Positions 1-35,371 of a DNA stretch of 64,000 bases are shown piece after piece. Location: positions 2,124-66,123 of IMG/VR virus record IMGVR_UViG_3300010218_000003. The stretch is one strand, 5' to 3'. Under the pieces are notes generated by a model. It saw only the letters and a list, made by a program, of their open reading frames with translations, searched no databases and had not been told where the DNA came from. The translations under genes were made by a program, and so were the position numbers. Source of the stretch: a virus. Its lineage: Duplodnaviria > Heunggongvirae > Uroviricota > Caudoviricetes. Within the stretch, counting starts at the first letter, position 1. Each line of letters opens with the position of its first letter.

Positions 1-783
1 GATGGGGAGGACGACAGCCTTGGCATCGTCGCGGAGCGCTATAAGGTCGTTCAGAACGAAGATCTTTTCGGCTTCGGTGACGGCATCCTCGCTGGTGGTG
101 GCACGTGGGAGACTGCCGGTTCTATCAAGGATGGTACGCAGGTCTTCGGATCTCTGCGTATCGGCCGTGAGGTGCTGGTGGGTGACGAGGATGTCACGAA
201 CATGTATCTCCTCGTGAACACCTCTCACGACGGTTCCCTTGCGGTACAGGCGAGCGTCACTCCGGTCCGTGTCGTGTGTCAGAACACCCTGAACTTCGCA
301 CTCCGTAACGGTGTGAAGCAGACGTTCAAGATGCGCCACACTCAGACCATCGAGGGTCGCATGGCTGCCGCGCGTGAGGCGCTGAACATCACCTTCGCGT
401 ACGCGGATGAGTTCGAGCGTGAGATGAACGAACTGTTCCGCACTCAGTGCACGAAGGATCAGTTCGATGAGCTGATCAGCACGGTCTACGGTGAGCGTCC
501 GGCCGAGAACGTCAAGGGTTCTCAGGTCAAGTGGGAGAACAAGCGTGACCTGCTGATGGGCATCTTCACCGACACGGGCGACGGTCCCAAGACCACTCAG
601 TCTCTGGCCGGTACCATGGCCGGTGCGCTGAATGCTCTGACGGAGCGTCTGGACTGGTACCGCATGCCCCGTAAGGGCGAGGTTGACAACCTGTTCGCGG
701 CTGCGAGTGGCTTCGACCCGGTTATCAACTCCGAGAAGAACAAGATCCGTAAGGCTGTCCTGAGCATGTCTCTGGCTGCCTGA
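1..783 (+). CDS. DUF932/TIGR03299-like phage-plasmid protein (5' partial; frame open from nt 1)
   Basis: frame 1 open from window start to TGA 781-783; NSHDGS-containing region; plus-strand codon usage. Confidence 0.6.
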   Translation, partial: DGEDDSLGIVAERYKVVQNEDLFGFGDGILAGGGTWETAGSIKDGTQVFGSLRIGREVLVGDEDVTNMYLLVNTSHDGSLAVQASVTPVRVVCQNTLNFALRNGVKQTFKMRHTQTIEGRMAAAREALNITFAYADEFEREMNELFRTQCTKDQFDELISTVYGERPAENVKGSQVKWENKRDLLMGIFTDTGDGPKTTQSLAGTMAGALNALTERLDWYRMPRKGEVDNLFAAASGFDPVINSEKNKIRKAVLSMSLAA

Positions 784-785
784 GT

Positions 786-816
786 CAACGGCCCCCGCTT
801 CGGCGGGGGCTTTTGG
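786..816 (+). terminator. rho-independent terminator
   Basis: GCCCCCGC-TTCG-GCGGGGGC hairpin followed by TTTT directly after stop codon. Confidence 0.7.
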
Positions 817-893
817 CCGCCCCGGTTATTTTGGCCCGGTGGTAGACATGTCCCTTGTACTCTGTTAGACTAGTATCAACGAAGGGACAGAAC

Positions 894-1097
894 ATGACTC
901 GCACTGTGACTGTGATCGTTCTCGAAGAGGGTATCCGAAGGGAGCTGGAGTTCACAGGCATCATGGACAATGGCATCGAGTTCGATGTCAAGACTGGCAC
1001 TCTCACTCTGTGGGAGGAGAAGGGAAAGCTTCTGAACTCCCGTTGGGTCGTGCCGTTCGTCTCGCACTACAACGTCACTGACGAATTGCAGTGGTGA
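894..1097 (+). CDS. hypothetical protein (68 aa)
   Basis: ATG at 894 with GAAGGGA RBS 7 nt upstream; inside longer listed ORF 855..1097. Confidence 0.45.
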   Translation: MTRTVTVIVLEEGIRRELEFTGIMDNGIEFDVKTGTLTLWEEKGKLLNSRWVVPFVSHYNVTDELQW

Positions 1098-1431
1098 TTG
1101 ACACAGAGCAATGACCTTGTTACACTATTGTAGTGAGGTCATAAGGTGTGTTCCTGGGTCCCCTGTCAGTCCATTCGGGCAAGGGGTTAAATAGCAGAAG
1201 GTCGGCTGCAACCCAGGGACCTTTCAATTTCTAACCGCCCCGGTTCATTGCTTACCCTAACTAACATGATGACTGTACATCTAGATTTTGATTTGTCCGT
1301 CATGTCCGATTTTTCGCCCTTTACGATAGGGGCCAAAATCCCCGGAAGATCTTGAAGCGCATTTACGAATGGGCCGAAATTCCCCGGATGATTTTCAATT
1401 TCAAATTCAAGACAGTTAGTTCGGTCTGTCT

Positions 1432-1605
1432 TATATAAGACATGAAACAAAGCCTCCCGTCTTTATTGGGAGGCTTCTTCTGTTTTACGATATAAGACAT
1501 AGGATACACAAGGATGATTGGCCGGTGGCATTAGGTGTCCTTGTACTATATAAGACATAGAGAACCAACCAATACTCCACCGGGTCAATTCTACATATAA
1601 GACAT
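1432..1605. repeat. four direct repeats (T)ATATAAGACAT(A)G spaced ~57 bp (iteron-like)
   Basis: copies at 1432, 1489, 1547, 1595; noncoding region. Confidence 0.7.
1449..1490 (+). terminator. hairpin plus T-rich tail (possible terminator)
   Basis: GCCTCCC-N9-GGGAGGC followed by TTCTTCTGTTTT. Confidence 0.45.
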
Positions 1606-2261
1606 AGCACAATCAATCTGTCTTGGCTGACTAAGCAGGCTGTATAGCCATGGCTGCATAATCTGGCTGTCTATCATGGCTGACTTACGAATTGAAGGCA
1701 AAATAGGCATGCATGGCTATGATTCTAAGGTTTATCTGGCATGCCCTTTACGAATGCATCAAAAAATGTGCAGAAATGCTGTGTTTTCGCAGGTTTTGGG
1801 CCGATTATTGCCAGTTTTCATAGGTTTTGGGGCTATTTTTGATTGTTTTAAGAGGCCGTCTGAGCCCTTGAATCGACATTTTATTAGGCTGGCTGCATAT
1901 GTTGGCTGTGAATCGAAGGCTGGAACCCCATTCTGACCTTAGAAATGAAGATATGGCTTACGATCTGCCTTCGATTTCCTGCACCATTACACACTAACTT
2001 TTCGTTAGTATCTCTATATCAAGATAATTACTAATCTCAGAAAGTTATCCACAGGTAAGCACACAGGTTGTGGATAACTATGTCTCGATGTCAAGATACT
2101 TTGATGATTCAAGCCTGCTACAGCACTGTTCATACGTCTTCTATCAAGGCTTCTGACGTGTCTACGTTCGCTTCTCGTAATGCTTTAATTGATTGGTGTC
2201 TCTGAGCACCATGTCTTTATTACAAAGGCATACAGAGGTTTCTGTCTGCTCTGTCTTATCT

Positions 2262-2300
2262 ATCTAGTCTTATATGGTTATGTCTTATGAGTCTTATATG
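2262..2300. repeat. three inverted copies (GTCTTATAT/GTCTTATGA) of the 1432-1605 repeat motif
   Basis: reverse complement of ATATAAGAC present 3x within 40 bp. Confidence 0.6.
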
Positions 2301-2330
2301 TATGAGGGAACTCTGACCACCGGGCTTTTT

Positions 2331-2389
2331 CTGACTAAAAATCCATCGAACTGATTCGTGACTAAAAAATCGGACTCTGACTAAAAATT
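2331..2389. repeat. three direct repeats (C/G)TGACTAAAAAT
   Basis: copies at 2331, 2358, 2377. Confidence 0.65.
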
Positions 2390-2402
2390 CAGCAAAACGG
2401 AA

Positions 2403-2428
2403 AAGGACTACCAAATCGGTAGTCCTCG
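2403..2428 (-). terminator. rho-independent terminator for minus-strand block
   Basis: GGACTACC-N5-GGTAGTCC hairpin followed by TTTT on minus strand, just past stop of ORF 2444..2722. Confidence 0.55.
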
Positions 2429-2443
2429 TCCTCATCCCAGTCG

Positions 2444-2722
2444 TCAGTCAAGACCACTTCTCCGAACCACATCTCTAAACCGGGAGGCATTACTAGTAGC
2501 ACTTCCATATAGCTCCTCGTCCTTACTCTCATTGAAAGAAGGATCAAATCGTGATGCCCACGCTAGCCAGTCTGTATTTTCCATTATGCAGCAGAGTACA
2601 CATTGCTTCTGTGGTCTAGTTGCAAGGGCTGCTCTTATATGGTCTGCTTCATGGTGTCTACCTGCTTTACGATGGACTTCCATACGCCGGGCCAAATATC
2701 GCCAGGCCATTTTCTCCAGCAT
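2444..2722 (-). CDS. hypothetical protein
   Basis: ORF track; adjacent to 2723..2959 in minus block. Confidence 0.45.
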   Translation of the reverse strand: MLEKMAWRYLARRMEVHRKAGRHHEADHIRAALATRPQKQCVLCCIMENTDWLAWASRFDPSFNESKDEELYGSATSNASRFRDVVRRSGLD

Positions 2723-2959
2723 TCATTCCCCTTGAAATGCTGAATCATCTAGATCTTCAATGCTCTCGTTGCCTGGCAATTCGTATTCGAACCGGCTACT
2801 CACATTCGCTTCATTGAAGGAGTCCTTGATGAACTCAGCTTTGAATTCGGATGAATGGCGGAAGACTACTTTGTCAACCTTAGTATCAAGGATGCACCAG
2901 TTGTAGCCTTCCACCACCCGGCCTCTTTTAAGAGGCTCCTTTACGATTGTATATCTCAT
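2723..2959 (-). CDS. hypothetical protein
   Basis: ORF track; tiles minus-strand block. Confidence 0.45.
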   Translation of the reverse strand: MRYTIVKEPLKRGRVVEGYNWCILDTKVDKVVFRHSSEFKAEFIKDSFNEANVSSRFEYELPGNESIEDLDDSAFQGE

Positions 2960-2994
2960 AATGTTCTTATGCTAGATCAGAACACATGGATTTG

Positions 2995-3429
2995 TCAATC
3001 AGTCTCTTCTGGTCCGCCGTTCAGACGCTCTAGATCCTTGCGAATTGCCTCGTTGCATTCTTCTGAATCACAGAAGTAACCGTGAAAGTCAATGTCAATT
3101 CTGTTTGTCAGCTTCCTGCACATGAAACATTCGCCAGGCTCATCGGAATGCATACCGCTTGGATCGTACCAGTAGGTTCCGTAACCATCGCGCATTGGGT
3201 ATTCATTGTGTCGAATGTCCACTGCCATGTCCTGTGCCTCTCTGAATGCATTGAAGGAATTAGCAGCGCTCTCCGCCACCGGGCCTAATTGTTGCATTCG
3301 CTGTCGTAGCTGTGAGAACTCACCAGCCACCCGTTCCCATTGTGCCTGAGCTAGCCGGAAGTCGTCCTCAGACAGATATCCAGCTAGCTCCCAATCACTC
3401 TCCCGCCAGCTTTGCACGGTTACCAGCAT
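2995..3429 (-). CDS. hypothetical Cys-rich protein
   Basis: ORF track 144 aa; CxxC...C..EEC motifs. Confidence 0.55.
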   Translation of the reverse strand: MLVTVQSWRESDWELAGYLSEDDFRLAQAQWERVAGEFSQLRQRMQQLGPVAESAANSFNAFREAQDMAVDIRHNEYPMRDGYGTYWYDPSGMHSDEPGECFMCRKLTNRIDIDFHGYFCDSEECNEAIRKDLERLNGGPEETD

Positions 3430-3892
3430 CCTCCAGGATCTTTAGAATCTCTGCAAGGGTACGGCGAGGATCGTTGTTCCAGTAAATGAAATTGTACTTC
3501 TGCGCATCGCCATTCTTCCGACGAACTTCATCGTGAAGCCACTGAGCGGCAATGTCGCCGTCTTCCTGATGGAAATAGCCCTTACGATAGAGCCACACCA
3601 TTGCGCCACGAAGACACAGCCTTCCTTCATCGTCCCGAAGAACTCCCTGTGCCCATCCCATCTTCCAGATGGCTGCACGCATTGCAAGAAGGATCTGTGA
3701 AGGAACGAGCTGTCCCTTCTTTCTCTTAATCTTACCGACCCGCACAGAGGCGATAGAAGCTGTGCCAGGATCACCCTTGCTCTTGTTACTCTTAGCAAGA
3801 TCCTTTGCATAGCCTTCGACAAGACCCTTGAATCTGTTTGAGATCTCACCATCAGTCATGCGAGCGAGATCAGTCATCAGTGCCATTAGCAC
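3395..3892 (-). CDS. hypothetical protein
   Basis: ORF track 165 aa. Confidence 0.55.
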   Translation of the reverse strand: MLMALMTDLARMTDGEISNRFKGLVEGYAKDLAKSNKSKGDPGTASIASVRVGKIKRKKGQLVPSQILLAMRAAIWKMGWAQGVLRDDEGRLCLRGAMVWLYRKGYFHQEDGDIAAQWLHDEVRRKNGDAQKYNFIYWNNDPRRTLAEILKILEDAGNRAKLAGE

Positions 3893-3895
3893 CTC

Positions 3896-4393
3896 TCAGA
3901 ATTTGATTGAATCCATCTCTGACCAGTAGTAGAAGCCTCTTAGTTCCATTAGTATAGAACCAAGGACATTACCACCCTTACCGTTACACCGGCCCCAGAA
4001 TGTATCTCCCCAGTCATTACCTTCGACTAGCAAAGCTGCACCTGTTGCCATGAGCTTAATCTTTAGATCCTCGTTCTGATCGAACTTAGCTCTTACGGTG
4101 TCTCTCATACAACGTACCTTGATTTGCTCCCACTTGTCAAGGTCAATGTCTACCTGCTTGCCAAGCTTCTTAGTCTCACCGGGCGTTTCACAATCAAGAA
4201 TAGCAGCGATGTATGCGTACTGCTCTTGCTGAGTGCCAGTCATCGCACGATACTTTGACGCCTGAAAGGCAGCTTCATTAGTCTTGAATGTCAGATTGCC
4301 CAGCTTTACGGGGGCTGAATAGAAATTGGAGAGGTAGTAATCCTCACCAACGAACTTCACGATTGGACTTGTTCTCACGTTCACGCCTCTCAC
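3896..4393 (-). CDS. NADAR/YbiA-like (DUF1768) protein
   Basis: 165 aa; GTG start; YbiA/NADAR-like motifs (EAAFQASKY..., GND/W..FWG). Confidence 0.55.
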   Translation of the reverse strand: MRGVNVRTSPIVKFVGEDYYLSNFYSAPVKLGNLTFKTNEAAFQASKYRAMTGTQQEQYAYIAAILDCETPGETKKLGKQVDIDLDKWEQIKVRCMRDTVRAKFDQNEDLKIKLMATGAALLVEGNDWGDTFWGRCNGKGGNVLGSILMELRGFYYWSEMDSIKF

Positions 4394-4770
4394 TGACTAC
4401 GTAGAACCACCTGCAAATAAAAAGAATTAGAAGGAGCCATACTATGACCCCTCCTATTAAAACAATTCTCATGCCATCATTCCGAAGAACCATGCAGCCC
4501 TGTGGGCTACACTACAGAAGAACAGTCGTCGCATCTTGTCACCGAATGTTTCGAAACAGATACTTTCGTCGCATTCCCCACCACACGCAGCACACGTCAT
4601 ATGATCATCCCCTTCGATCAGTAATGTGGCTTGTCAACTCATATGAGTAGTGACCGATGGCCACTCCGACAACGCCTAGAATCAAACCAATTACCTGTGC
4701 TATGTAAACGTTCATGGTTAAACGATACTCTCGTGCTGGTTATCTGTCAAGGTACGGCAAAGGCCGCTGA

Positions 4771-5073
4771 TTACTCAGCGGCCAGTTCCGTCCTTAGAGC
4801 TAGGATGGTACGGCCCTTTAGTTCTCGCGTAGGTTCGCCGTTGACGAATTCATAAATGCGCGGTACTGACATGACATCGTACGTAATCCTAATTGCCTCG
4901 GCCTCGTCAATGTCCACATAAACGACAGGATAGTCAAGCTCCTCGCTTAGTGCTATGACATGCGGCGCAAGTGCACGACAAGGCGCACACCACGCCGGGG
5001 CAGAGAAAACAACTAGTGCTCTTTCCTTTACCTGCTCCTCCAGATTTGGAAGAGAGGCAACATTAACTAGAAT
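4771..5073 (-). CDS. thioredoxin-like protein (no canonical start codon found)
   Basis: manual translation ...VVFSAPWCAPCRAL...; stop-to-stop frame 5076-4771; no in-frame ATG/GTG/TTG near 5' end. Confidence 0.5.
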   Translation of the reverse strand: MLVNVASLPNLEEQVKERALVVFSAPAWCAPCRALAPHVIALSEELDYPVVYVDIDEAEAIRITYDVMSVPRIYEFVNGEPTRELKGRTILALRTELAAE

Positions 5074-5076
5074 TGC

Positions 5077-5496
5077 TTACCTCCTCATTGCTCGGAATGA
5101 CGGAGCAAGGCGCTCAACAGCCTTAGCAATGTCTTCCGGATTTCCATTGACGTAAATGTTAACAGTCACATTCACATCGCCGGACTTCTCTTCGACAGAG
5201 TTGAACTCAGGATGCATCTCAAGAGGCTTCTTGTCCTGTAGTTTGTAGAACTTAACTCTGTCACCCCAGCCCTGTGAATTGTACTGCCCCTTGATGTATC
5301 GGTTGTAGTAAACTCCAACACTCAGGGCAGAATGCAGACGATTGAACTCGTCCTCACTCACACCGCTGTAAACCTGTACATCTCCACGATTGAAAAGAAC
5401 AGCAAGCTTCTGCTCGTCCTTATTGAAGTAGACACCCTCAATGACGCTGCTGTTTGCAGTGAAGTGACTGGTGTATGGGAACTCGTACTGATTCAT
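5077..5496 (-). CDS. hypothetical protein
   Basis: ORF track 139 aa. Confidence 0.55.
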   Translation of the reverse strand: MNQYEFPYTSHFTANSSVIEGVYFNKDEQKLAVLFNRGDVQVYSGVSEDEFNRLHSALSVGVYYNRYIKGQYNSQGWGDRVKFYKLQDKKPLEMHPEFNSVEEKSGDVNVTVNIYVNGNPEDIAKAVERLAPSFRAMRR

Positions 5497-5517
5497 TTAA
5501 TTCCTTCGTAGATGGCT

Positions 5518-5790
5518 TTACGGAGTCTGTTGATCAGCGTCCGCATTTTCTTCTTCAATTGTTCCATGATGAGCATAAACGTCTAGCTTGCCCTCCGCAT
5601 CCTTTACGACAATCAGACGACCAACGTAAACCCATGTACCCACCGGCTCATCCTTGAGTTTACCTTTGATCTTATCCAGAGTGTCTTCTAGATCGCGGAC
5701 TGTTGGCTTCTTAAGCCTTCCGTTTACTCTCCAGCGATACTGCTTTTCATCAAACAGCTTTCGCAATTCCTGAGCAAGTTCGATCACCAT
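5518..5790 (-). CDS. hypothetical protein
   Basis: ORF track 90 aa. Confidence 0.5.
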   Translation of the reverse strand: MVIELAQELRKLFDEKQYRWRVNGRLKKPTVRDLEDTLDKIKGKLKDEPVGTWVYVGRLIVVKDAEGKLDVYAHHGTIEEENADADQQTP

Positions 5791-5993
5791 TCACCATGTC
5801 TCTCAAGGTACATAGCGACAGCATCATGAAGTTGTGCTGATACGATGAACGCCTGCTTTGTGTAGTGATCTGGATCTTCGATCTGCTCTGTCAAAATGGA
5901 GAGGAGCAGTCCGAAACCCTTATTAAGACTGGCAATTGCCGCCTTGTCTGAGTCTAGAACTGCCCCTTCCACAGTAAGTCTGTATTCGTCCAT
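5784..5993 (-). CDS. hypothetical protein
   Basis: ORF track 69 aa. Confidence 0.45.
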   Translation of the reverse strand: MDEYRLTVEGAVLDSDKAAIASLNKGFGLLLSILTEQIEDPDHYTKQAFIVSAQLHDAVAMYLERHGEW

Positions 5994-6230
5994 GTCTTCC
6001 TTTCAACTACCTCTATAGTAGTTGATTAACTGACCACCGTCAAGCTGTTTAGTGGCCAGACAAACTTGTTCATGCCGTTTCCATCGGGCCTAGGGCTTAA
6101 TGGAGAAAGCCATACGAGGTCTTGTCCCCTCTTATTTAGAACCTTTGCCCTAAAGCCGTTCCATGGCCCCTCGTGGTACAACTCTACGGTGCTGTTGCCA
6201 TAGATGGTGTTGCCCGCCATGTCCTTCAAA

Positions 6231-6476
6231 TTACGCCCTCTTCTCGTGAAGGTGGAGATACTGAGTCGGAATGTAAACAATTCGCTGGTCATAGTCTGCT
6301 GGCCTGCTCTGCTCAATTGAAAGAAGAACTGTGCCATCAGGAAGAGGAACACTCATCACCATACAGATGACATTGTTCCACTTCTTAAGGTTGCGAGGTG
6401 CACCCTTAATCTTGACGTAATCGACCTTGTTTACAGGCTTGCCCTTGGGATCATTGAAGCTGAACTGTACAGCCAT
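6231..6476 (-). CDS. hypothetical protein
   Basis: ORF track 81 aa. Confidence 0.45.
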   Translation of the reverse strand: MAVQFSFNDPKGKPVNKVDYVKIKGAPRNLKKWNNVICMVMSVPLPDGTVLLSIEQSRPADYDQRIVYIPTQYLHLHEKRA

Positions 6477-6661
6477 TACTTCCTCTTCGCTCGCTTGGCG
6501 TCCTCACGGGACTTGGTCAGGTCTCTGATGAAATTGTCACAGTCAATGTCATCAACTGTGAATGAACTTAGCAATCTTCCCTTGAAGTAAAGTTCAATGG
6601 TGACGTGGCCTTCATTTCCCCACGCGAATCTATATTTGTCAAACCTCATTTGACCTCCCAT
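6476..6661 (-). CDS. hypothetical protein
   Basis: ORF track 61 aa; ATGA overlap with upstream gene. Confidence 0.45.
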   Translation of the reverse strand: MGGQMRFDKYRFAWGNEGHVTIELYFKGRLLSSFTVDDIDCDNFIRDLTKSREDAKRAKRK

Positions 6662-6667
6662 AGAAAG

Positions 6668-6747
6668 CTCCCCAGGTAGGATTCGAACCTACGTCGCTAA
6701 TCCTGATTCAAAGTCAGGCGGCCCCTGCCAAACAGAGCAACTGGGGA
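6668..6747 (-). tRNA. tRNA-Gln (anticodon TTG)
   Basis: acceptor TCCCCAG/CTGGGGA, anticodon loop CTTTGAA, T-arm GTAGG-TTCGAAT-CCTAC; fills intergenic gap. Confidence 0.75.
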
Positions 6748-6768
6748 ATAGCCCCGAAGGGCACTGGA

Positions 6769-7212
6769 TCAATCAGTCATCAGACTTTCAAGAGTCCAGA
6801 AGAACTCGTTGGAATCAATGTCAATTCCATCAGGCCGAGGTCCGTCGAGCTTAATCCGAACCTTGTCGTTGACGGGCTTACGAGTCGTACGACCAGTGAG
6901 ACCCTGCCACTTCTCAAGATAGGGGTTCTTGTGCAACTCTTCGTAAGTATTGACAATCATCACCCGCGTACCAACGGGCATTGATTCATTAACCTTTTCT
7001 GGTGTAGTGGCACCATCGATAACCATCTGAGTACGCTTCCAGAAGAACGGTGAACGCTTGAATCCATCAGGACGATCACTCTCAGGCTTCACCCAGACAT
7101 ACCCATTTCTGAATTCGTCAGGCTCAACGACTTCACATCGAATACCTGCCCATCCCGCTCCAGCGTCAGGATCGTTCTTGAGAATGACGATGCTACCAAC
7201 TTCGAGATTCAT
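6769..7212 (-). CDS. hypothetical protein
   Basis: ORF track 147 aa. Confidence 0.55.
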   Translation of the reverse strand: MNLEVGSIVILKNDPDAGAGWAGIRCEVVEPDEFRNGYVWVKPESDRPDGFKRSPFFWKRTQMVIDGATTPEKVNESMPVGTRVMIVNTYEELHKNPYLEKWQGLTGRTTRKPVNDKVRIKLDGPRPDGIDIDSNEFFWTLESLMTD

Positions 7213-7222
7213 TTTGCCTCCA

Positions 7223-7438
7223 TCAAGTGGCTTCGTTACAAGGATACTCTCTGCATCGCTCGATTGTCAACGTGCCCTGCGGATGCAGCAGCTCGTGAAA
7301 TTTCTGAGCAATGGAGAAGTCGAGACCGATCGCCTCTGCCCTCTGCCTTACATGTTCATCATACTCGCCGTCGCGTAGTGCGTCAAGGAAGCCTTCCTCG
7401 AATTCCTCTTCATCTACCCATACTTCGATGTAACCCAT
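7223..7438 (-). CDS. hypothetical protein
   Basis: ORF track 71 aa. Confidence 0.45.
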   Translation of the reverse strand: MGYIEVWVDEEEFEEGFLDALRDGEYDEHVRQRAEAIGLDFSIAQKFHELLHPQGTLTIERCREYPCNEAT

Positions 7439-7441
7439 TGA

Positions 7442-7633
7442 TCATCCGATCTCGTCTGTGAAGTCTAGTAGACTCCATCCCTTTACTTCAAGTGATTGCT
7501 TGTATTGCTTGCCATGATGCCCGCAGAACAGAAGAACAAGATCTTCCTTCTCTGCAATTACGAATGCTTGAGCGCCGCACTTATCGCAACGATCTTCTGT
7601 CTTATTCAGCGGACGTTCCGCAACTGTTTGCAT
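7442..7633 (-). CDS. hypothetical zinc-ribbon protein
   Basis: 63 aa; CDKC...CGHH. Confidence 0.45.
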   Translation of the reverse strand: MQTVAERPLNKTEDRCDKCGAQAFVIAEKEDLVLLFCGHHGKQYKQSLEVKGWSLLDFTDEIG

Positions 7634-7664
7634 AGTGCTCCTTACTTAGCACAACACCCCTAGC

Positions 7665-7967
7665 TTATGGGCCAGGGGGTTGATTGTTTTGTAGCTGCCT
7701 CATGGCTGCTTCTAGTTCACTCTTTACCTTGATGAAGTTGTCCATCAATTCGTAATACTTTCCACGCCACTTGTCTAGGTCGGCTTCAACATTGTTCAGC
7801 TCTTGCTTTAGACCCTGAATCTCGGTCCTTAGTTCACTTCTGAGCTGAGCGGCAGTATCGTCCCGAACCTTGCTACGACTGAGCCAGTGTTCGACAAACT
7901 TAAGTCCAACCCCACCCAGCACTGTACCAATCAAGGCAATCCAAGCCGTAGTAATCTCGGGCATCAT
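7665..7967 (-). CDS. membrane/coiled-coil protein
   Basis: 100 aa; N-terminal TM then coiled coil. Confidence 0.5.
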   Translation of the reverse strand: MMPEITTAWIALIGTVLGGVGLKFVEHWLSRSKVRDDTAAQLRSELRTEIQGLKQELNNVEADLDKWRGKYYELMDNFIKVKSELEAAMRQLQNNQPPGP

Positions 7968-8371
7968 CTCAGCAACCTTATCCTAAAGTATAGGAATGCC
8001 ACGATGAGCATAAGAGTAAGGCTGAATACCCATGTTAGAGGTACAAACCCAATTGTTAGCCATCTGAGCAATGTCATGAATCCATAGCTCAATGATGCCA
8101 TAAATAGACCAGTTGCCTCTAGTGTTCGCTTCGCTCTCTTAGCACCGGCCATAATAGCCAGCGCCGTTGAAGCATAGAAGGCACCAATAATCATTCTCAC
8201 GTAGGTTGAATCAATTGCCTGTCCCAAAGGTGTCGTGGCACTAGGCTGATACAACCAACTCATCGTATACAATCCGGAGACCAAAAGACCAACAGCTATT
8301 ATCACCTCGATAATCACGAGGGGATGGGCGTAAGCCTTGACTAGAACTGCTGATATCTTGGACATATGCAA
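7964..8371 (-). CDS. integral membrane protein
   Basis: 135 aa; several hydrophobic helices. Confidence 0.55.
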   Translation of the reverse strand: MHMSKISAVLVKAYAHPLVIIEVIIAVGLLVSGLYTMSWLYQPSATTPLGQAIDSTYVRMIIGAFYASTALAIMAGAKRAKRTLEATGLFMASLSYGFMTLLRWLTIGFVPLTWVFSLTLMLIVAFLYFRIRLLR

Positions 8372-8396
8372 ATTGTAATCATTGATGAGTTAAAAG

Positions 8397-8645
8397 TCAA
8401 TCAATCAAGTCTTCAACAGCTTCCGCAACTTCCTGTGCGAGCCAAATCTCAGTCTCAGTGAGTGTTGTCATTCTTTTAACTTGATACCTATTAATGTATA
8501 GGCGCAAAAATTGGGCCTTTTCAGCGGCACCAGAGATCTCTTCTGGAGTTGCTTCTGATCTTAGCACAAGCTTAATGGTGATCCAGATGCTCTTCGTAAG
8601 ATCCTTTATGCATTCTGCTGTTGAATACTCGTCATCAAAGTACAT
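8397..8645 (-). CDS. hypothetical protein
   Basis: ORF track 82 aa. Confidence 0.45.
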   Translation of the reverse strand: MYFDDEYSTAECIKDLTKSIWITIKLVLRSEATPEEISGAAEKAQFLRLYINRYQVKRMTTLTETEIWLAQEVAEAVEDLID

Positions 8646-8672
8646 TATCCTCCCGTCAAGGGGATTTTATTG

Positions 8673-8728
8673 CGGCCGGTAGGGATTCGAACCCCATAGT
8701 TCCCTAGTCTTGGCTAGTATACCCGGCC
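8673..8728 (-). ncRNA. minimal tRNA-like element (acceptor GGCCGG/CCGGCC + CTAG hairpin + T-arm, no anticodon arm)
   Basis: minus strand TGGGG-TTCGAAT-CCCTA T-arm; exactly fills 8646-8735 intergenic gap. Confidence 0.35.
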
Positions 8729-8735
8729 TGATGGC

Positions 8736-8966
8736 TTAATTCAAATGGTCCTCTGTGATGGCTCCACCGACGTAAAGCTCATTATCTAGCCATCTGCTTA
8801 CGTCGGTGCCTGAACGAGCCATCAGAATTATAAGCCACCTAGGCTCTCGTTCGTTTGCCGCACATTCGGAGCAAACCACGAAATCCATATCTGGATTCAG
8901 CCGTGACTTGTAATTCACCAGTGAATTTCTCTGCTTGTCACAGATCTGACAAACCAGTTCGCTCAC
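8736..8966 (-). CDS. zinc-ribbon protein
   Basis: 76 aa; CQIC...CSEC. Confidence 0.45.
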   Translation of the reverse strand: MSELVCQICDKQRNSLVNYKSRLNPDMDFVVCSECAANEREPRWLIILMARSGTDVSRWLDNELYVGGAITEDHLN

Positions 8967-9101
8967 TCCTCTTCATATCCAATCTCTCCAATGACCTCAA
9001 GGTCATCGTTTTCGAAATACTCGTTGAACTCAATTCCGCCTACAGAATACTGAACCTTACACATATAGCTGTGTACCTCAGTGATTATTCCGTAGACACC
9101 T

Positions 9102-9440
9102 TCACTGACTACCAGAACCACTTGGCTTTCCCGGTGCATCATGGACCTCCAAAATACAGTTTACACCAAGAGAACGGATCTTTTTAATCAGGTCGCTGAT
9201 CTGCTCGGTGATCAACATCCTGTTATGTTCAGAAAGGTGATCGAAGGTACTGCTGTAGGCTCTCAGAGCGAAGTTAGGAACGTCATGCTGCGTTGCAGGG
9301 TATTGAACAAGGTCACATGTGAATCCTGTGCCAGGCTCAAACCTGAATTCCCTGAACGCCTTTCTGGCGTTGTCTATGGCCATGAGTGCAAAGGCGTTCT
9401 CTACACTCATTCGCTCAGCCTCTCCTTGATTCTTTCCCAT
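9102..9440 (-). CDS. hypothetical protein
   Basis: ORF track 112 aa. Confidence 0.45.
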   Translation of the reverse strand: MGKNQGEAERMSVENAFALMAIDNARKAFREFRFEPGTGFTCDLVQYPATQHDVPNFALRAYSSTFDHLSEHNRMLITEQISDLIKKIRSLGVNCILEVHDAPGKPSGSGSQ

Positions 9441-9718
9441 GTTTCCGGAGTCTTGTGAGCATTGCGATACTTATCTACTCTAGCAGCGTTCCAATAAACG
9501 CCGCCCCAAACTCCGAAGCCTGAGTTCTCCTTGGCTGCCATTGCGCATTGCTTCATGACTGGACAGCGAAGGCACATTTCATCTACGTATCGGGCAGAGA
9601 TTTTATCCTCTTCGTAAGTCTCGAAGAAGAAGGAAGTGGGAAGACCACGACATAGAGCCAAGTCTTCCCACTGTACTTCATCCGGACTTATGCCCCTCTG
9701 TTCAAGAATTCCGGACAT
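9407..9718 (-). CDS. whiB: WhiB-like transcription factor (start uncertain, 9718-9805)
   Basis: 4 Cys (C...CLRC...C) and G(F)GVWGG motif typical of WhiB family. Confidence 0.6.
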   Translation of the reverse strand: MSGILEQRGISPDEVQWEDLALCRGLPTSFFFETYEEDKISARYVDEMCLRCPVMKQCAMAAKENSGFGVWGGVYWNAARVDKYRNAHKTPETWERIKERLSE

Positions 9719-9941
9719 TGCGAGAAGGTACCCTCCACTTCCCATCATTGTCCACCGCGATGCGAGTCTCAAAACCCCAGTTGCCATTACGGTAAGCGCC
9801 TTCACGCTTGTTCCAACCGAGATTCTTACGACTCTTGCGGAAGAATACTAGTGTCCAGCCTTCCCATCGAACGTCGTTGCTTAGCTTGCGCTGCTCGGTG
9901 ACGAACGTATCGGCTGAATTGTAATCCAGAACAACAGACAT
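9702..9941 (-). CDS. hypothetical protein
   Basis: ORF track 79 aa. Confidence 0.4.
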   Translation of the reverse strand: MSVVLDYNSADTFVTEQRKLSNDVRWEGWTLVFFRKSRKNLGWNKREGAYRNGNWGFETRIAVDNDGKWRVPSRNVRNS

Positions 9942-10032
9942 GTTTTTCCTTAGATAGTGCTTATTTGTTTGTAAGATACAAAAGAACAGGAAGGAAATAT
10001 TCCCTCCTGTTCAATTGTACTACAAAGTCTGA

Positions 10033-10383
10033 TTACTTGCTTGATCTACGAGTAGAGGTAGAATCTGACTTCTGCTCTGCCTTCTTATCAGTTGCCTGAT
10101 CAGTGGTAACAACTCCACCACCGGTTAGTTCGTCGTCCTTTACAGAGCGACGGAATGCAGCGTCTTCAAACTTCCAACCTGCCTCACGAGCACGACGAGC
10201 CGCTAGGGTCTCAACGTCTGGGCGAGATTCGTAGTTCTTTAGAGCCTCTTCGTAGTCAACGTATGCGGAGTCCTTAACTCCAGCTTCCTCAGCACGCTTT
10301 GCATCCTCGTCCGCTAGTGGGTCAAGGTGTGGTGCAACAACGTCCTGTGAAGACTTGTACTGGTAATCCTTGTTATCTGCCAT
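10033..10383 (-). CDS. hypothetical acidic protein
   Basis: ORF track 116 aa. Confidence 0.5.
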   Translation of the reverse strand: MADNKDYQYKSSQDVVAPHLDPLADEDAKRAEEAGVKDSAYVDYEEALKNYESRPDVETLAARRAREAGWKFEDAAFRRSVKDDELTGGGVVTTDQATDKKAEQKSDSTSTRRSSK

Positions 10384-10469
10384 TATTTACTTTCACCTCC
10401 TTGTCTTCAAGTCTGCGCATTCTTGAAGAATTCTCTAAAAGAATAGCACAGACTTGTTTATAAGGCGGA

Positions 10470-11240
10470 TCAAGATGGCAACTCGTTGACCTTACCGGTA
10501 GCAGTCTGAACAGACAGGTTGTCAGTGTCAAGAACACAGTAGTTGTAGAACATGCCATTCATCTCAAGGCCGTAAACGCTAGCGTCTCCGAGCTGATGGG
10601 CGAATGGGTAATTCTCCATCCACGTGTGATAGTGACCATGAAACCAAAGTGTAGGCCGAACAACTCGACCAACCCTGTCCATAAGCTGACGATGAGCCGT
10701 TGAATCCGGATCATCCTTCAACCGGAAACCGAATGGAGCGTAAGTCGGACAGTCATGAGTCAGAAGAATATCAGACTGATTACCTTGAATCTCAAGACTC
10801 TTAACCACTCGCTCCGGAACAGCCTCCTGCTTCCACCAAGTCTTACCGAGTGTACGCCGATTCTTGTCAATTGAAACGGCACCACCAACAGCCTGGAACC
10901 ACCTGTCATCAAATCGCCACCGGTTAACTCGACCAGTATAACGAATGTGACTACGGATGATTGTCAAACCATTGTAAGTCTTAGGGTTGTTCTTCTCCAA
11001 CCAATCGAGCCGGTCCCAATTCTCGTGGTTACCAGCAACGAAATAAACCTTGATTCCGTACTTCCGGCACTCCTCATTCAGAGCGTCAAGGTAGTTGAAG
11101 CCGTCCGCCTCATGCTCCCAGTAACCGAAGTCACCAACCTGCATGATCTTACGAGCGCCCATGGCATCCGCACGTCGGACAGTTTTACGAGCATGCATTG
11201 TATCCCCATGCCAGTCACCAGCGATCATGATCTTAGCCAT
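10470..11240 (-). CDS. calcineurin-like metallophosphoesterase
   Basis: GDWHG, GDFG, GNHE motifs. Confidence 0.8.
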   Translation of the reverse strand: MAKIMIAGDWHGDTMHARKTVRRADAMGARKIMQVGDFGYWEHEADGFNYLDALNEECRKYGIKVYFVAGNHENWDRLDWLEKNNPKTYNGLTIIRSHIRYTGRVNRWRFDDRWFQAVGGAVSIDKNRRTLGKTWWKQEAVPERVVKSLEIQGNQSDILLTHDCPTYAPFGFRLKDDPDSTAHRQLMDRVGRVVRPTLWFHGHYHTWMENYPFAHQLGDASVYGLEMNGMFYNYCVLDTDNLSVQTATGKVNELPS

Positions 11241-11293
11241 GTCGTTCCCTTCGTCGTTGTTAGTACAACATTAACACAGTGCTGATCACTTCG

Positions 11294-11662
11294 TCAACAT
11301 GTGTAGATGACACGCTTGATGCCAGCAAGCTGGATTGCCCTGTCACAGGCTTCACAGGGCTTTGAGAAAACGGCTTGGCCGTCCTTGTTGCGTGCGATAT
11401 AAATAATTGCTCCAGCGGCCTTCTTGCACCGGGCAATGGCCATTGCTTCGGCATGCACAGAGCAGAAACGCTCAATGTGCTCATCACTGACGTTGTTAGG
11501 ATCGTTCTTCAACGTGTTCCAGCCTCGGGACAGAACCCTACCAGACCTAACAATCACAGCTCCATGCTTCTGCTTCATGTTAGAATTGGCAGACAACTCC
11601 ATCGCCAGAGACAGGAATGACCGGTCCTTCTTAGAAAGACCGGTCGATTCTCCGTTAGCCAT
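11294..11662 (-). CDS. dCMP/cytidine deaminase (start moved to MANGES to relieve overlap)
   Basis: HAEAMAI and PCEAC zinc-binding motifs; ATGGCTAA coupling with upstream small ORF. Confidence 0.8.
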   Translation of the reverse strand: MANGESTGLSKKDRSFLSLAMELSANSNMKQKHGAVIVRSGRVLSRGWNTLKNDPNNVSDEHIERFCSVHAEAMAIARCKKAAGAIIYIARNKDGQAVFSKPCEACDRAIQLAGIKRVIYTC

Positions 11663-11822
11663 TGCGCTCCCACTCACCAGCGTAATACCTGTCAAGTGTT
11701 TCAGGGTGTCCATTGCTGTCTACGATGACGAACTTGCCACCCTCAACCTTTGCAACAATTGCCGTACGACCAGTTTCCCGGTGCTTAATCGGCATGTCTC
11801 GCTTTAGCTCACTGTATCTCAT
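11655..11822 (-). CDS. hypothetical small protein (55 aa)
   Basis: manual ORF MRYSELKRDMPIKH...; translationally coupled to deaminase. Confidence 0.4.
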   Translation of the reverse strand: MRYSELKRDMPIKHRETGRTAIVAKVEGGKFVIVDSNGHPETLDRYYAGEWERNG

Positions 11823-11851
11823 CAATTTCCTTTACGAATCTTTGCTCTGCC

Positions 11852-12064
11852 TCATTCAGCGCAATCATCAGTGCCACATTGCTCAGCACTCCGATTGCTA
11901 TCAAGATGGTCAGCAGCAGAACGACCCGTGATCTCATAGATGATTCTTTCTGCATTGCATTGTGGGCAGAGATTCTTGTCATAACCATTATAGGTGCGAA
12001 GGTGGCCGGTTAGCTTATTCCGACCACACTTACACTTACCTAAGTTCCGCTGCCTCGTCCTCAC
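11852..12064 (-). CDS. zinc-finger protein
   Basis: 70 aa; CKC...CPQC. Confidence 0.45.
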   Translation of the reverse strand: MRTRQRNLGKCKCGRNKLTGHLRTYNGYDKNLCPQCNAERIIYEITGRSAADHLDSNRSAEQCGTDDCAE

Positions 12065-12299
12065 TCAATTCCTCAAGGTAGTCAGGATCGTTCTTCAACT
12101 CACCGTACCCGTCAATATCGTACTTGACAAGCAGGTTGAAGTAAGCAGACTCATCTACTGTATCCCAGTCGCCATCTCTGATGGTTCGATACAGCTTCTC
12201 GATGACTTCCTTGCGCTTGTCTTCTGGGACATACTCTAGCATGAGGTCTAGAGGACCGTCAAAGAACTCTGTTCCACCGGCCCATCCCATTACCAGCAC
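12036..12299 (-). CDS. hypothetical protein
   Basis: ORF track 87 aa. Confidence 0.45.
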   Translation of the reverse strand: MLVMGWAGGTEFFDGPLDLMLEYVPEDKRKEVIEKLYRTIRDGDWDTVDESAYFNLLVKYDIDGYGELKNDPDYLEELSEDEAAELR

Positions 12300-22251: not shown

Positions 22252-22328
22252 ATTTCAATCCTCCTGCCTCTGATGAATTAGGCAGTATCAGTATATCAGG
22301 AGGATTGTTATGAAGTCTAATTGACTTG

Positions 22329-22398
22329 CTGTCACAGTTGGATTCGAACCAACAACATCCTTGGCCTAGGATTGCTTTGCCAATTAAGCTACGTGACA
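22329..22398 (-). tRNA. tRNA-like with non-standard 6-nt anticodon loop (AGGCCA)
   Basis: acceptor TGTCACG/TGTGACA, D-arm GCTT/AAGC, perfect ATCCT/AGGAT stem, T-arm GTTGG-TTCGAAT-CCAAC. Confidence 0.5.
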
Positions 22399-35290: not shown

Positions 35291-35371
35291 GCCGTTTGAC
35301 CTATTAAACTACACCCCTCATATCAGGAGCGACCTGATATGCATTTGACGGCATCGCGTTTACCATCAAAG

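What the first reader, a model, noticed from the sequence alone, without database searches (positions are those of the whole stretch)
1425..2390. Iteron-rich convergent intergenic region with three repeat families
Three repeat families lie between converging plus- and minus-strand terminators in a 1.3-kb noncoding stretch (1100-2440). First, four direct copies of (T)ATATAAGACAT(A)G at a regular ~57-bp spacing (1432-1605). Second, three inverted copies of GTCTTATAT/GTCTTATGA (2262-2300). Third, three direct repeats of TGACTAAAAAT (2331-2389). The regular spacing and inverted partners suggest an origin of replication, a partition site or a regulated promoter set, not simple termination.
Basis: seen in the sequence. 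Interest (0 to 1): 0.55.

Follow-up and report, generated by a model that had tools for sequence, protein, structure and literature searches.

The report
Repeat-rich terminal-repeat junction of Streptomyces phage
The repeats are real and strongly conserved, and they sit on either side of the point where this large Streptomyces phage's 12-kb terminal repeat begins (the physical end of its DNA), so they most likely help form or handle the genome end and are not a classical replication origin or partition site.

Summary
They are islands of 83-100% invariance among nine related phages, while the spacers between them are 12-52% invariant. The window comes from a cluster-BE Streptomyces phage (Boydwoodruffvirinae; best match Karimac, 90%). 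In eight deposited relatives, the experimentally defined left genome end, which is the start of the ~12.6-kb direct terminal repeat (DTR), maps to one homologous column, window 1984|1985. The ATATAAGAC copies lie 387-556 bp inside the DTR. Their inverted copies lie 269-307 bp outside it. In two other genera the repeat sequence differs, but the inner and outer clusters change together, so one factor probably reads both. The 1.3 kb also holds polar GGCTG arrays with a 13-bp period, an invariant 12-mer at the cut, an inverted DnaA-box pair, and a promoter-driven structured small RNA supported by covariation. No ORF is conserved. My best reading (about 0.45) is a cis-acting region for end processing or packaging. 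It resembles the untranslated repeat region at the T5 terminal-repeat boundary. A replication origin is weakened: the GC-skew minimum lies elsewhere and the spacing is not iteron-like. Partition and promoter-set readings are unsupported. The function is untested.

The parts
1098..1126 (+). Host-type promoter, TTGACA-17-TACACT with an upstream TG, directly after the stop codon of the last DTR gene
   Evidence: 24 of 29 positions are invariant in 9 phages. Conserved as TTGACA-17-TAACAT in BE1 phages.
1143..1224 (+). Structured small RNA candidate: a three-way junction followed by a U-rich tract. No Rfam family matches.
   Evidence: 27 pairs are 100% paired in 10 sequences from 3 genera. Seven pairs show compensatory changes. 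Slid controls give 35-64% pairing. Rfam found nothing there up to E=5. This is the only part of the stretch conserved in all 86 BE records.
1320..1398 (+). Two 37-nt direct repeats (TTTACGA...CCCCGGA.GAT.TT.AA) that resemble the CCGCCCCGG/AAAAGATCTTG modules of the DTR intergenic regions
1427..1442 (.). Inner repeat copy 1: the perfect 16-bp palindrome TGTCTTATATAAGACA
   Evidence: 17 of 17 positions (1427-1443) invariant.
1450..1486 (+). Intrinsic terminator (T-rich on both sides) that ends DTR transcription
   Evidence: Compensatory change CCTCCC/GGGAGG to CCTGCC/GGCAGG in 3 relatives.
1489..1502 (+). Inner repeat copy 2, GATATAAGACATAG
   Evidence: 14 of 14 invariant
1547..1560 (+). Inner repeat copy 3, TATATAAGACATAG. 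It is flanked by the inverted pair GGCCGGTGG (1520-1528) and CCACCGGGT (1577-1585). Its upstream flank is paralogous to the promoter of the last DTR gene.
   Evidence: Sequence comparison with window 835-880.
1594..1607 (+). Inner repeat copy 4, CATATAAGACATAG
1625..1682 (+). GGCTG array A: five copies at 13-14 bp period, all on one strand
   Evidence: This is the densest GGCTG cluster in the 64 kb: 9 copies in 350 bp against at most 4 elsewhere, and no CAGCC.
1783..1844 (+). 31-nt tandem direct repeat, GTTTTCGCAGGTTTTGGG.C.ATT
1887..1922 (+). GGCTG array B: four copies with the same polarity, ending 62 bp from the genome end
   Evidence: 8-10 copies and no CAGCC in six BE2 relatives, 9 in Tomas.
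1984..1985 (.). Inferred left boundary of the direct terminal repeat, i.e. the physical left end of virion DNA. Positions up to 1984 are inside the DTR; 1985 onward is unique DNA.
   Evidence: Position 1 of eight independently deposited records maps to this column. The ends of such records were set from read pile-ups (PMC5764925, which describes that method for eight BE1 genomes). The inner segment has 2 places per record and the outer segment 1.
1985..1996 (+). Invariant 12-mer CATTACACACTA immediately outside the cut; unique in the window
   Evidence: 12 of 12 invariant, against 7 of 39 for the last 39 bp inside. ATTACACA sits at +2 in BE1, BE2 and Tomasvirus. No other exact copy in the window.
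2011..2101 (.). AT-rich segment with direct repeats TCTCTATATCAAGATA (2011) and TCTCGATGTCAAGATA (2083). These flank an inverted pair of perfect DnaA boxes, TTATCCACA at 2045-2053 (+) and 2069-2077 (-).
   Evidence: The first box is at +61 in all nine BE2-type sequences and an inverted partner is kept at about +85 in most of them, with variable spacer sequence. The pair is also present in two BE1 phages and absent in Naboo.
2253..2300 (-). Outer repeat cluster, inverted relative to the inner one: GTCTTAT at 2253 (weak), 2267, 2282 and 2291
   Evidence: 26 of 35 positions in 2266-2300 are invariant. It co-varies with the inner cluster across genera.
2317..2330 (+). Conserved CCACCGGGC + TTTTT block
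   Evidence: related blocks occur in BE1 and Tomasvirus
2332..2388 (+). Three TGACTAAAAA(A)T repeats at 2332, 2359 and 2378
   Evidence: each 100% invariant; spacers 12-29%. Kept in all three genera at +298 to +402. A second triple array lies upstream of the Karimac gene 22 promoter. An HNH gene splits the array in TomSawyer, and the HNH-carrying relatives show the same two-piece match there.
2403..2427 (-). Intrinsic terminator of the long minus-strand gene block, whose last gene is 2444-2722

Best explanation
The 1.3-kb non-coding stretch is the junction between unique DNA and the ~12.6-kb direct terminal repeat (DTR) of a cluster-BE Streptomyces phage. The point that becomes the physical left end of virion DNA lies at 1984|1985, roughly midway between two converging terminators (ending at about 1486 and about 2403). 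The repeats are binding sites in a cis-acting end-formation or packaging region.

One sequence-specific, phage-specified protein would read both clusters of the ATATAAGAC repeat. I infer a terminase recognition subunit or an accessory factor. The inner cluster has four direct copies plus one palindrome and lies 387-556 bp inside the DTR. The outer cluster is inverted and lies 269-307 bp outside. Because the two clusters face each other, the bound protein could bracket or loop the intervening ~650 bp and so position a nuclease on the invariant AC|CATTACACACTA site.

The polar GGCTG arrays next to the end, the AT-rich segment with its DnaA-box palindrome, and the TGACTAAAAAT triplet would be further modules of the same nucleoprotein region.

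Shown here: the DTR junction (by homology), the conservation, the co-variation of the two clusters, the lack of coding capacity, and the terminators. Inferred: protein binding, the identity of the binder, looping, and a role in cutting or packaging.
For: 1. Position 1 of eight deposited relatives maps to the same column, 1984|1985. Their ends come from read pile-ups and 2x coverage (PMC5764925 describes this for BE1 genomes).
2. The inner segment occurs twice per record (68 places in 34 records) and the outer segment once per record (34 places in 34 records).
3. Repeat copies are 83-100% invariant and spacers 12-52%.
4. Positions relative to the boundary are conserved in nine phages.
5. Three genera carry mutually exclusive repeat sequences: ATAAGAC, CC(A/T)ATATAC and CCCTATA(A/T). 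In each genus the motif is forward inside the DTR and reverse outside, at similar distances. That fits a co-evolving binder which reads both sides of the cut.
6. The 12-mer just outside the cut is invariant although the last 39 bp inside are only 18% invariant.
7. No ORF is conserved.
8. The stretch is bounded by terminators, and no promoter-like site was listed between 1616 and 2400.
9. Precedent: T5 has a 1.2-kb untranslated repeat region that straddles its DTR boundary (10.1101/866236).
Against: 1. The other DTR boundary must also be processed, yet in Karimac (12590|12591) it has no ATAAGAC cluster, only one copy 287 bp outside.
2. The clusters lie 270-550 bp from the cut. That is farther than the repeated elements of the characterised cos and pac sites I know of.
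3. The spacing of 55-58(68)/55-58/47-49 bp is not helically phased.
4. No binder was found. Flanking proteins have no Pfam or PHROG function, and a model of the adjacent 92-aa protein was low-confidence.
5. The boundary in this window is inferred only by homology.
6. The DnaA boxes and AT-rich DNA would fit replication equally well.
Confidence: 0.45

Rival explanations
1. Replication origin or priming site. The repeats would bind an initiator and the inverted DnaA boxes would recruit host DnaA. The AT-rich 1985-2044 segment would melt, either to start genome replication or to prime the strand-displacement synthesis that duplicates the DTR from a nick at the boundary.
For: Direct repeats plus a palindromic copy. 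A perfect inverted TTATCCACA pair, with the first box at +61 in all nine BE2-type sequences and a pair in two BE1 phages, with variable spacer. AT-rich DNA lies between the cut and the boxes. A DTR phage has to duplicate its repeat; the T7 model for this is from my own knowledge.
Against: The spacing is 47-58 bp and not phase-conserved, unlike ~22-bp iterons. The repeats are 330-600 bp from the DnaA boxes. The DnaA boxes are absent in Tomasvirus, although the rest of the architecture is kept there. No initiator gene is adjacent. The region is a GC-skew maximum and a point of transcriptional convergence, and the Karimac skew minimum is at about 16-20 kb. Skew in phages largely tracks transcription, so this last point is weak.
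Confidence: 0.2
2. DNA-entry control or end protection of the T5 type. If the right end enters first, this junction follows the early-gene-bearing DTR exactly as the T5 'injection stop signal' region follows its repeat. The repeats and DnaA boxes would pause transfer or tether the DNA. The polar GGCTG arrays could act as Chi-like signals against end-degrading nucleases.
For: T5 Repeat Region 3 is 1.2 kb, untranslated, mostly inside the repeat and overrunning 270 bp into unique DNA. [quoted passage not shown] Here the stretch is 885 bp inside plus 455 bp outside, with a DnaA-box pair, and HNH insertions in relatives. DTR genes carry host-type promoters. The GGCTG arrays sit on the 3'-ending strand at the left end.
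Against: No evidence exists for two-step injection in BE phages. The role of the T5 region is itself a hypothesis. DnaA boxes are missing in Tomasvirus. No GGCTG array is seen in the last 400 bp at the right end of the Karimac DTR (sequence printed).
Confidence: 0.13
3. Polar barrier. Each cluster has the same orientation relative to the incoming transcription or replication, as Tus/Ter fork traps and mycobacteriophage 'stoperators' do. The clusters would insulate the junction from forks or from read-through.
For: Opposed clusters flank a convergence zone that is also a skew maximum.
Against: Intrinsic terminators already flank the zone. No Tus- or RTP-like protein was identified. Orientation is not strict: the BE1 phages have one inverted copy inside the DTR.
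Confidence: 0.08
4. Operators or a regulated promoter set. The repeats would bind a transcription regulator that controls the small RNA or the early genes.
For: A TGACTAAAAAT triple array also sits just upstream of the Karimac gene 22 promoter. The flank of inner copy 3 is paralogous to the promoter of the last DTR gene. Copy 1 is a palindrome next to the small-RNA terminator.
Against: No promoter-like site was listed between 1616 and 2400, and the four sites in the scanned stretch match the 3.8 expected. The ATAAGAC repeat occurs at no other intergenic site in the 64 kb or in 50 kb of Karimac. The promoter-like flank is not conserved as a promoter in BE1.
Confidence: 0.1
5. Partition (centromere-like) site.
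For: Arrays of repeats. A gene for a ParB-like nuclease-domain protein lies in the Karimac DTR.
Against: BE phages are reported to be virulent and lack lysogeny genes (PMC10690885). No ParA was seen in the DTR. The repeat is tied to the DTR cut site.
Confidence: 0.02

Closest known systems
Bacteriophage T5 'Repeat Region 3', the proposed injection-stop-signal region at the terminal-repeat boundary (Davison, bioRxiv 10.1101/866236)
   Same: Both phages have a long DTR (10 kb against ~12.6 kb) carrying early genes. Both have an untranslated region of more than 1 kb that straddles the boundary between DTR and unique DNA (270 bp against 455 bp of overrun). Both regions hold many direct repeats, inverted repeats and palindromes, kept in the same order among relatives and conserved better than the neighbouring ORFs. 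Both have paired DnaA boxes. HNH endonuclease genes interrupt repeat regions in both systems: in T5 the insertion separates Repeat Regions 1 and 2, and here it splits the TGACTAAAAAT array in some relatives.
   Different: No sequence relationship is apparent, and I did not test for one. The host and the phage family are different. The co-varying, oppositely oriented clusters bracketing the cut and the polar GGCTG arrays are not described in the sections of the T5 paper that I read. DnaA boxes are dispensable in one BE genus. Two-step injection is unknown for BE phages. The function of the T5 region is itself unproven.
Terminase recognition sites built from repeated elements around a cleavage site: lambda cosB R1-R3, SPP1 pacL/pacC/pacR, and P1 pac with 4+3 hexamers (from my own knowledge; not checked in papers here)
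   Same: Short repeated binding elements lie on both sides of, or next to, a site-specific cut that creates the virion DNA end.
   Different: Those sites span about 100-250 bp; here the clusters are 270-550 bp from the cut. Those phages have cohesive or headful ends, not a 12.6-kb exact DTR. Terminase binding is not shown here.
T7 concatemer junction: short repeat arrays beside the DTR, the phiOL and phiOR promoter/origins, and replicative duplication of the DTR (from my own knowledge)
   Same: It is a DTR phage with arrays of short repeats next to the repeat boundaries and replication- or transcription-linked elements at the junction. The repeat has to be duplicated during maturation.
   Different: The T7 DTR is 160 bp. 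The elements are different, and no phage RNA polymerase promoters are evident here.
Iteron-type origins (P1 oriR, F, R6K, lambda ori; from my own knowledge)
   Same: Direct repeats plus an inverted copy, DnaA boxes, and AT-rich DNA.
   Different: The spacing and phasing are wrong, there is no adjacent initiator gene, the elements are spread over about 900 bp, and the site is a skew maximum.
12-bp inverted repeats that bracket the long terminal repeats of staphylococcal Twort-like phages (Lobocka et al. 2012; recalled from memory, not retrieved)
   Same: A conserved short sequence marks the DTR boundaries. Here both boundaries read ...A(C/T)|CAT(T)ACA from inside to outside.
   Different: The resemblance between the two BE boundaries is only about 7 of 10 bases and may be chance.

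Membership tests
Cluster-BE (Boydwoodruffvirinae) DTR junction | The sequence is homologous to the junction between unique DNA and the DTR in deposited BE genomes | tested here: met
   34 BE2-type records cover the stretch at 75-90% identity. The flanking genes are collinear with those of Karimac.
Cluster-BE (Boydwoodruffvirinae) DTR junction | The physical end or DTR start lies at this position in this phage's own virion DNA | not testable with these tools
   Only one copy of the repeat is in the window and no reads are available. The position is inferred from eight relatives whose position 1 maps to 1984|1985.
Terminase recognition (pac/cos-type) site | It lies at or next to the site cut to form the virion ends | tested here: met
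   The boundary lies between the clusters. This rests on homology.
Terminase recognition (pac/cos-type) site | It has repeated protein-binding elements under selection | tested here: met
   Invariant islands and co-variation of the inner and outer clusters in three genera.
Terminase recognition (pac/cos-type) site | It is bound by the small terminase and required for cutting or packaging | not testable with these tools
   This needs EMSA or ChIP and packaging assays.
T5-type untranslated repeat region at a long-DTR boundary | An untranslated region of at least 1 kb that straddles the DTR boundary, with ordered direct repeats, inverted repeats and palindromes conserved among relatives | tested here: met
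   compared with 10.1101/866236.
T5-type untranslated repeat region at a long-DTR boundary | Paired DnaA boxes | tested here: inconclusive
   An inverted pair is present in BE2 and BE1 and absent in Tomasvirus.
T5-type untranslated repeat region at a long-DTR boundary | Two-step DNA injection that stops at this region | not testable with these tools
   No data exist for BE phages.
Iteron-type replication origin | At least three direct repeats of about 17-22 bp in helical phase (spacing of about 22 bp) | tested here: not met
   The conserved core is about 14 nt. Spacing is 57/58/47 bp here and 55-68/55-58/47-49 bp in relatives.
Iteron-type replication origin | An adjacent initiator gene | tested here: not met
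   Six neighbouring proteins have no Pfam or PHROG function other than one NADAR domain.
Iteron-type replication origin | DnaA boxes and an AT-rich unwinding element next to the iterons | tested here: inconclusive
   Both are present, but 330-600 bp from the repeats and not universal.
Iteron-type replication origin | Located at the cumulative GC-skew minimum or at a point of strand divergence | tested here: not met
   This is a skew maximum and a convergence point. The Karimac minimum is at about 16-20 kb.
Partition site (parS or centromere) | A cognate ParA/ParB operon and a plasmid-like or lysogenic lifestyle | tested here: not met
   Only a 117-aa ParB-like nuclease-domain gene lies in the DTR, with no ParA. 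BE phages are reported to be virulent (PMC10690885).
Known RNA family (for the 1143-1224 element) | A match to an Rfam covariance model | tested here: not met
   Nothing at gathering score, and nothing over 1143-1224 up to E=5.

The most novel reading that the evidence does not exclude
The junction would be a dedicated machine for duplicating a 12.6-kb terminal repeat. A genus-specific protein reads the two opposed, co-evolving repeat clusters and directs a strand-specific nick at AC|CATTACACAC. Host DnaA bound at the adjacent inverted boxes and the AT-rich segment load a replisome. That replisome copies the whole repeat by strand displacement, so each packaged genome receives its own copy. 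This would be the first defined cis-element set for formation of a long DTR.
Probability: 0.12. Interest if true: 0.8.

Novelty: new variant of a known kind. Interest (0 to 1): 0.5.

Why it matters
How phages with 10-kb or longer exact terminal repeats (T5, SPO1, Twort-like and cluster-BE phages) recognise and duplicate their ends is poorly understood. This junction offers a compact set of testable cis elements:
- two opposed clusters whose sequence changes in step across three genera, which is a natural swap experiment;
- an invariant cut-site 12-mer;
- polar GGCTG arrays;
- DnaA boxes.

It also contains a previously unannotated small RNA, supported by covariation, that is conserved in all 86 BE genomes found. 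None of these features is annotated in the deposited records I inspected or mentioned in the BE papers I read. The ends themselves were already known, and none of the functions has been tested.

Tried and rejected
1. Rfam at gathering score and up to E=5 found no family for the small RNA. The weak hits over 1355-1634 came only from the terminator hairpin.
2. Small-ORF mRNA: all seven ORFs of 40 aa or more in 1100-2440, including the 86-aa ATG ORF at 1676-1936 and the ORFs annotated in Genie2 and Yaboi, are disrupted in relatives.
3. Binder among the neighbours: Pfam and PHROGs gave no DNA-binding assignment.
4. The adjacent 92-aa protein has invariant H23, H24, D27, H28, C41, C44 and C45, which suggested a mini-HNH packaging nuclease. 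A PDB profile search found nothing. The AlphaFold model was all-helical with pLDDT 57. I dropped the idea and ran no fold search. The protein is also highly conserved between genera with different repeats, so it is an unlikely repeat-specific binder.
5. The same repeat at the other DTR boundary: absent.
6. The repeat region in the phage satellites of BE helpers or in other phages: only the 34 BE2-type records matched.
7. Single-sequence folding of the small RNA is not exceptional (z = -0.83). The support for it comes from covariation.
8. Literature searches for T7 pacB and for the Twort-like LTR brackets returned nothing usable. Those comparisons rest on my memory.
Full report
**Source of the window.** The 64-kb window carries 42 tRNA genes and a tmRNA, all on the minus strand. 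The stretch 1100-2440 matches 34 Streptomyces phages of the Karimacvirus group (cluster BE2, Boydwoodruffvirinae) over most of its length at 75-90% identity, and 86 BE records over part of it. The best match is Karimac at 90%. The window is the reverse complement of the deposited orientation. A protein identical to the 92-aa product of 2444-2722 is on record from a 121-kb JGI contig. The window is therefore probably from a metagenomic assembly in which the terminal repeat is collapsed to one copy.

**Checking the observation.**
- All three repeat families are present at the stated coordinates.
- TATAAGACAT occurs exactly four times (1434, 1491, 1549, 1596) and nowhere else in the window.
- The 7-mer core ATAAGAC occurs 16 times against 7.0 expected, and no shuffle of 100 reached 16. 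Nine copies lie in two clusters. One cluster is forward at 1435-1603, with a reverse partner that makes copy 1 a perfect 16-bp palindrome. The other is reverse at 2253-2297.
- The three TGACTAAAAA(A)T copies lie at 2332-2388.
- Spacing of the inner copies is 57, 58 and 47 bp.
- In a nine-phage alignment the repeat copies are 83-100% invariant, the spacers 12-52%, and the stretch as a whole 54%.
- No ORF in the stretch survives in relatives.
- The minus-strand terminator is at 2427-2403. The plus-strand terminator is at 1450-1476, between copies 1 and 2, and has a compensatory stem change in three relatives.

**The missing context: the terminal-repeat boundary.**
- Karimac gene 1 (909-1112) is repeated as gene 259 (120228-120431). 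This gives a 12,590-bp direct terminal repeat whose right-hand copy starts at 119320.
- The first 60 bases of eight independent records (Karimac, TomSawyer, IchabodCrane, LukeCage, StarPlatinum, Genie2, Wofford, Elmer) all map to the same homologous column, window 1984|1985.
- BE genome ends were defined from pile-ups of read starts and two-fold coverage (PMC5764925, which describes this for eight BE1 genomes).
- As expected, the inner part (1420-1700) occurs twice per record and the outer part (2230-2440) once per record.
- So 1100-1984 is the outermost 885 bp of the repeat, and 1985-2440 is unique DNA that abuts the right-hand repeat copy.
- The 12 bases just outside the boundary (CATTACACACTA) are invariant, although the last 39 bases inside are only 18% invariant. 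The 12-mer is unique in the window.

**Anatomy, left to right.**
- Promoter TTGACA-17-TACACT, 1098-1126.
- Structured RNA, 1143-1224.
- Two 37-nt repeats, 1320-1398.
- Palindromic repeat copy 1, 1427-1442.
- Terminator, 1450-1486.
- Repeat copies 2-4, at 1489, 1547 and 1594.
- Five GGCTG at 13-14 bp period, 1625-1682.
- A 31-nt tandem repeat, 1783-1844.
- Four more GGCTG, 1887-1922.
- The DTR boundary, 1984|1985.
- An AT-rich segment in which direct repeats flank an inverted pair of perfect DnaA boxes (2045-2053 and 2069-2077).
- The inverted repeat cluster, 2253-2300.
- CCACCGGGCTTTTT, 2317-2330.
- The TGACTAAAAAT triplet, 2332-2388.
- The terminator at 2403-2427.

The GGCTG arrays are the densest in the window, with 9 copies in 350 bp against at most 4 elsewhere. 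They are strictly polar, with no CAGCC, and they are conserved in BE2 and Tomas.

**Comparison across genera.**
- In nine BE2-type phages the elements keep their distances from the boundary: inner copies at about -550 to -386, the first DnaA box at +61 in all nine with an inverted partner near +85 in most, outer copies at about +258 to +319, and the T repeats at about +323 to +407.
- BE1 phages (NootNoot, Samisti12) and Tomasvirus (Naboo/Tomas) have diverged too far to align outside the RNA element, yet they show the same layout with a different repeat sequence.
- BE1 has CC(A/T)ATATAC forward inside the DTR and GTATAT(A/T)GG outside.
- Tomasvirus has CCCTATA(A/T) inside and (A/T)TATAGGG with GTCTTATAG outside.
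- Apart from one GTCTTAT in Naboo and the overlap between the Samisti12 and Tomasvirus patterns, each motif is missing from the other genera.
- All three genera keep ATTACACA at +2 and three GACTAAAAA copies at +298 to +402. The DnaA-box pair is present in BE1 and BE2 but absent in Naboo.
- Co-variation of the inner and outer clusters is the strongest evidence that one factor reads both sides of the cut and that the factor has co-evolved with its sites.

**Mechanism.** I commit, at about 0.45, to a cis-acting region for end formation or packaging. A phage-specified protein would bind the opposed clusters and organise the ~650 bp between them, so that a nuclease acts at AC|CATTACACAC. Protein binding, looping and the link to terminase are all inferences. 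The evidence against this reading is as follows.
- The other DTR boundary of Karimac is conserved as ...GCATGTAT|CATACA in four phages but lacks the repeat.
- The clusters are unusually far from the cut.
- The spacing is not phased.
- No binder could be nominated.

**Rival readings.**
- Replication origin or priming site for DTR duplication (0.2). The DnaA boxes, AT-rich DNA and repeats favour it. Against it are the spacing, the lack of an initiator gene, the loss of the DnaA boxes in Tomasvirus, and the skew. The region is a cumulative GC-skew maximum at a point of transcriptional convergence, while the Karimac minimum is at about 16-20 kb at the gene 42/43 divergence.
- DNA-entry or end-protection role of the T5 type (0.13). 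T5 Repeat Region 3 is a 1.2-kb untranslated, repeat-dense stretch containing DnaA boxes that straddles the DTR boundary and overruns 270 bp into unique DNA. T5's other repeat regions are split by an HNH insertion (10.1101/866236). The parallel with this junction is close: 885 bp plus 455 bp, a DnaA-box pair, and an HNH/endonuclease VII gene that splits the T array in TomSawyer, with the other HNH-carrying relatives showing the same split match.
- Polar barrier (0.08).
- Operator or promoter set (0.1). The T array recurs upstream of the Karimac gene 22 promoter, but no promoter-like sites are enriched here.
- Partition site (0.02).

**The small RNA.**
- A host-type promoter follows directly after the last DTR gene, and then a three-way-junction element at 1143-1224.
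- Across ten sequences from three genera, all 27 pairs are standard in every sequence. Seven pairs carry compensatory changes. No shuffle of 500 reached the observed covariation score. Slid controls pair at only 35-64%.
- It matches no Rfam family.
- It is the only part of the stretch conserved in all 86 BE records.
- Its function is unknown.

**Verdict.** The feature is a new variant of a known kind: a repeat-rich untranslated junction at a long terminal-repeat boundary, whose closest described analogue is in T5. It has distinctive, testable features. The records I inspected do not annotate it and the BE papers I read do not describe it. All functional claims remain untested.

Noticed in passing
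window 1098-1232: An unannotated structured small RNA (core 1143-1224) with its own TTGACA-17-TACACT promoter and a U-rich tail. It is conserved in all 86 BE-cluster records found. Seven of 27 pairs show compensatory changes and none is broken. It matches no Rfam family.
   Followed up: yes
window 1625-1682 and 1887-1922: Nine GGCTG pentamers at 13-14 bp period, all on the strand that ends 3' at the genome's left end, with no CAGCC. This is the densest cluster in the 64 kb. It could be a protein-binding array or a Chi-like signal. No such array is visible in the last 400 bp at the right end of the Karimac DTR.
   Followed up: partly
window 2045-2077: An inverted pair of perfect DnaA boxes (TTATCCACA), flanked by direct repeats TCTC(T/G)AT(A/G)TCAAGATA. 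The first box is at +61 from the DTR boundary in all nine BE2-type sequences, and a pair is present in two BE1 phages, with variable spacer. The pair is absent in Tomasvirus.
   Followed up: partly
L019 (Karimac) 1-12590; window 784-893: Nearly every one of the 26 DTR genes has its own intergenic module: a GC-rich terminator hairpin, then GCCGCCCCGG, then AAAAGATCTTG, then a host-type TTGACA...TAGACT promoter. This resembles the early 'host-takeover' gene arrays of SPO1 and T5. The DTR is also more GC-rich (about 56-58%) than the rest of the genome (46-49%).
   Followed up: partly
L019 (Karimac) about 10560-10640: A second triple array of (T)GACTAAAAA(A)T lies immediately upstream of the promoter of Karimac gene 22 inside the DTR. 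This suggests the motif binds a transcription factor.
   Followed up: partly
L019 (Karimac) 11582-12885; L020-L022: The other DTR boundary (12590|12591) is also embedded in about 1.3 kb of mostly non-coding DNA that carries an HNH endonuclease gene. It has its own repeat family, CC(C/T)ATATGCCC(C/T)AT.TGT at 39-bp spacing (11691-11825). The boundary sequence ...GCGAAGCATGTAT|CATACA is conserved in four phages and is near-palindromic around the cut.
   Followed up: partly
L003 (TomSawyer) 2534-3076, and about 12 other relatives: In TomSawyer an HNH/endonuclease VII gene is inserted inside the TGACTAAAAAT array, with one extra repeat copy. This looks like a homing insertion that the junction tolerates. 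The other HNH-carrying relatives show the same two-piece match across this point.
   Followed up: partly
alignment A1, columns about 135-270 (StarPlatinum L006): StarPlatinum carries an extra roughly 130-bp insertion right after the small RNA. It has a GGAGG ribosome-binding site and a short cysteine-rich ORF (about 42 codons with a CxxC motif; my own reading).
   Followed up: no
window 2444-2722 (-): The 92-aa protein adjacent to the junction is restricted to BE phages. It has invariant H23, H24, D27, H28, C41, C44 and C45, a possible metal site. The AlphaFold model is all-helical but low-confidence (pLDDT 57), and there is no PDB or Pfam match.
   Followed up: partly
window 22328-22398 and 35210-35318: ARAGORN calls one tRNA with an undetermined anticodon (22328-22398). 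Rfam finds an unusually long 109-nt tRNA-like match at 35210-35318 that ARAGORN does not list; it may contain an intron or be degenerate.
   Followed up: no
window, whole: A protein identical to the window's 92-aa ORF is on record from a 121,054-bp JGI contig, about one DTR shorter than the deposited BE genomes. The source assembly has probably collapsed the terminal repeat.
   Followed up: no
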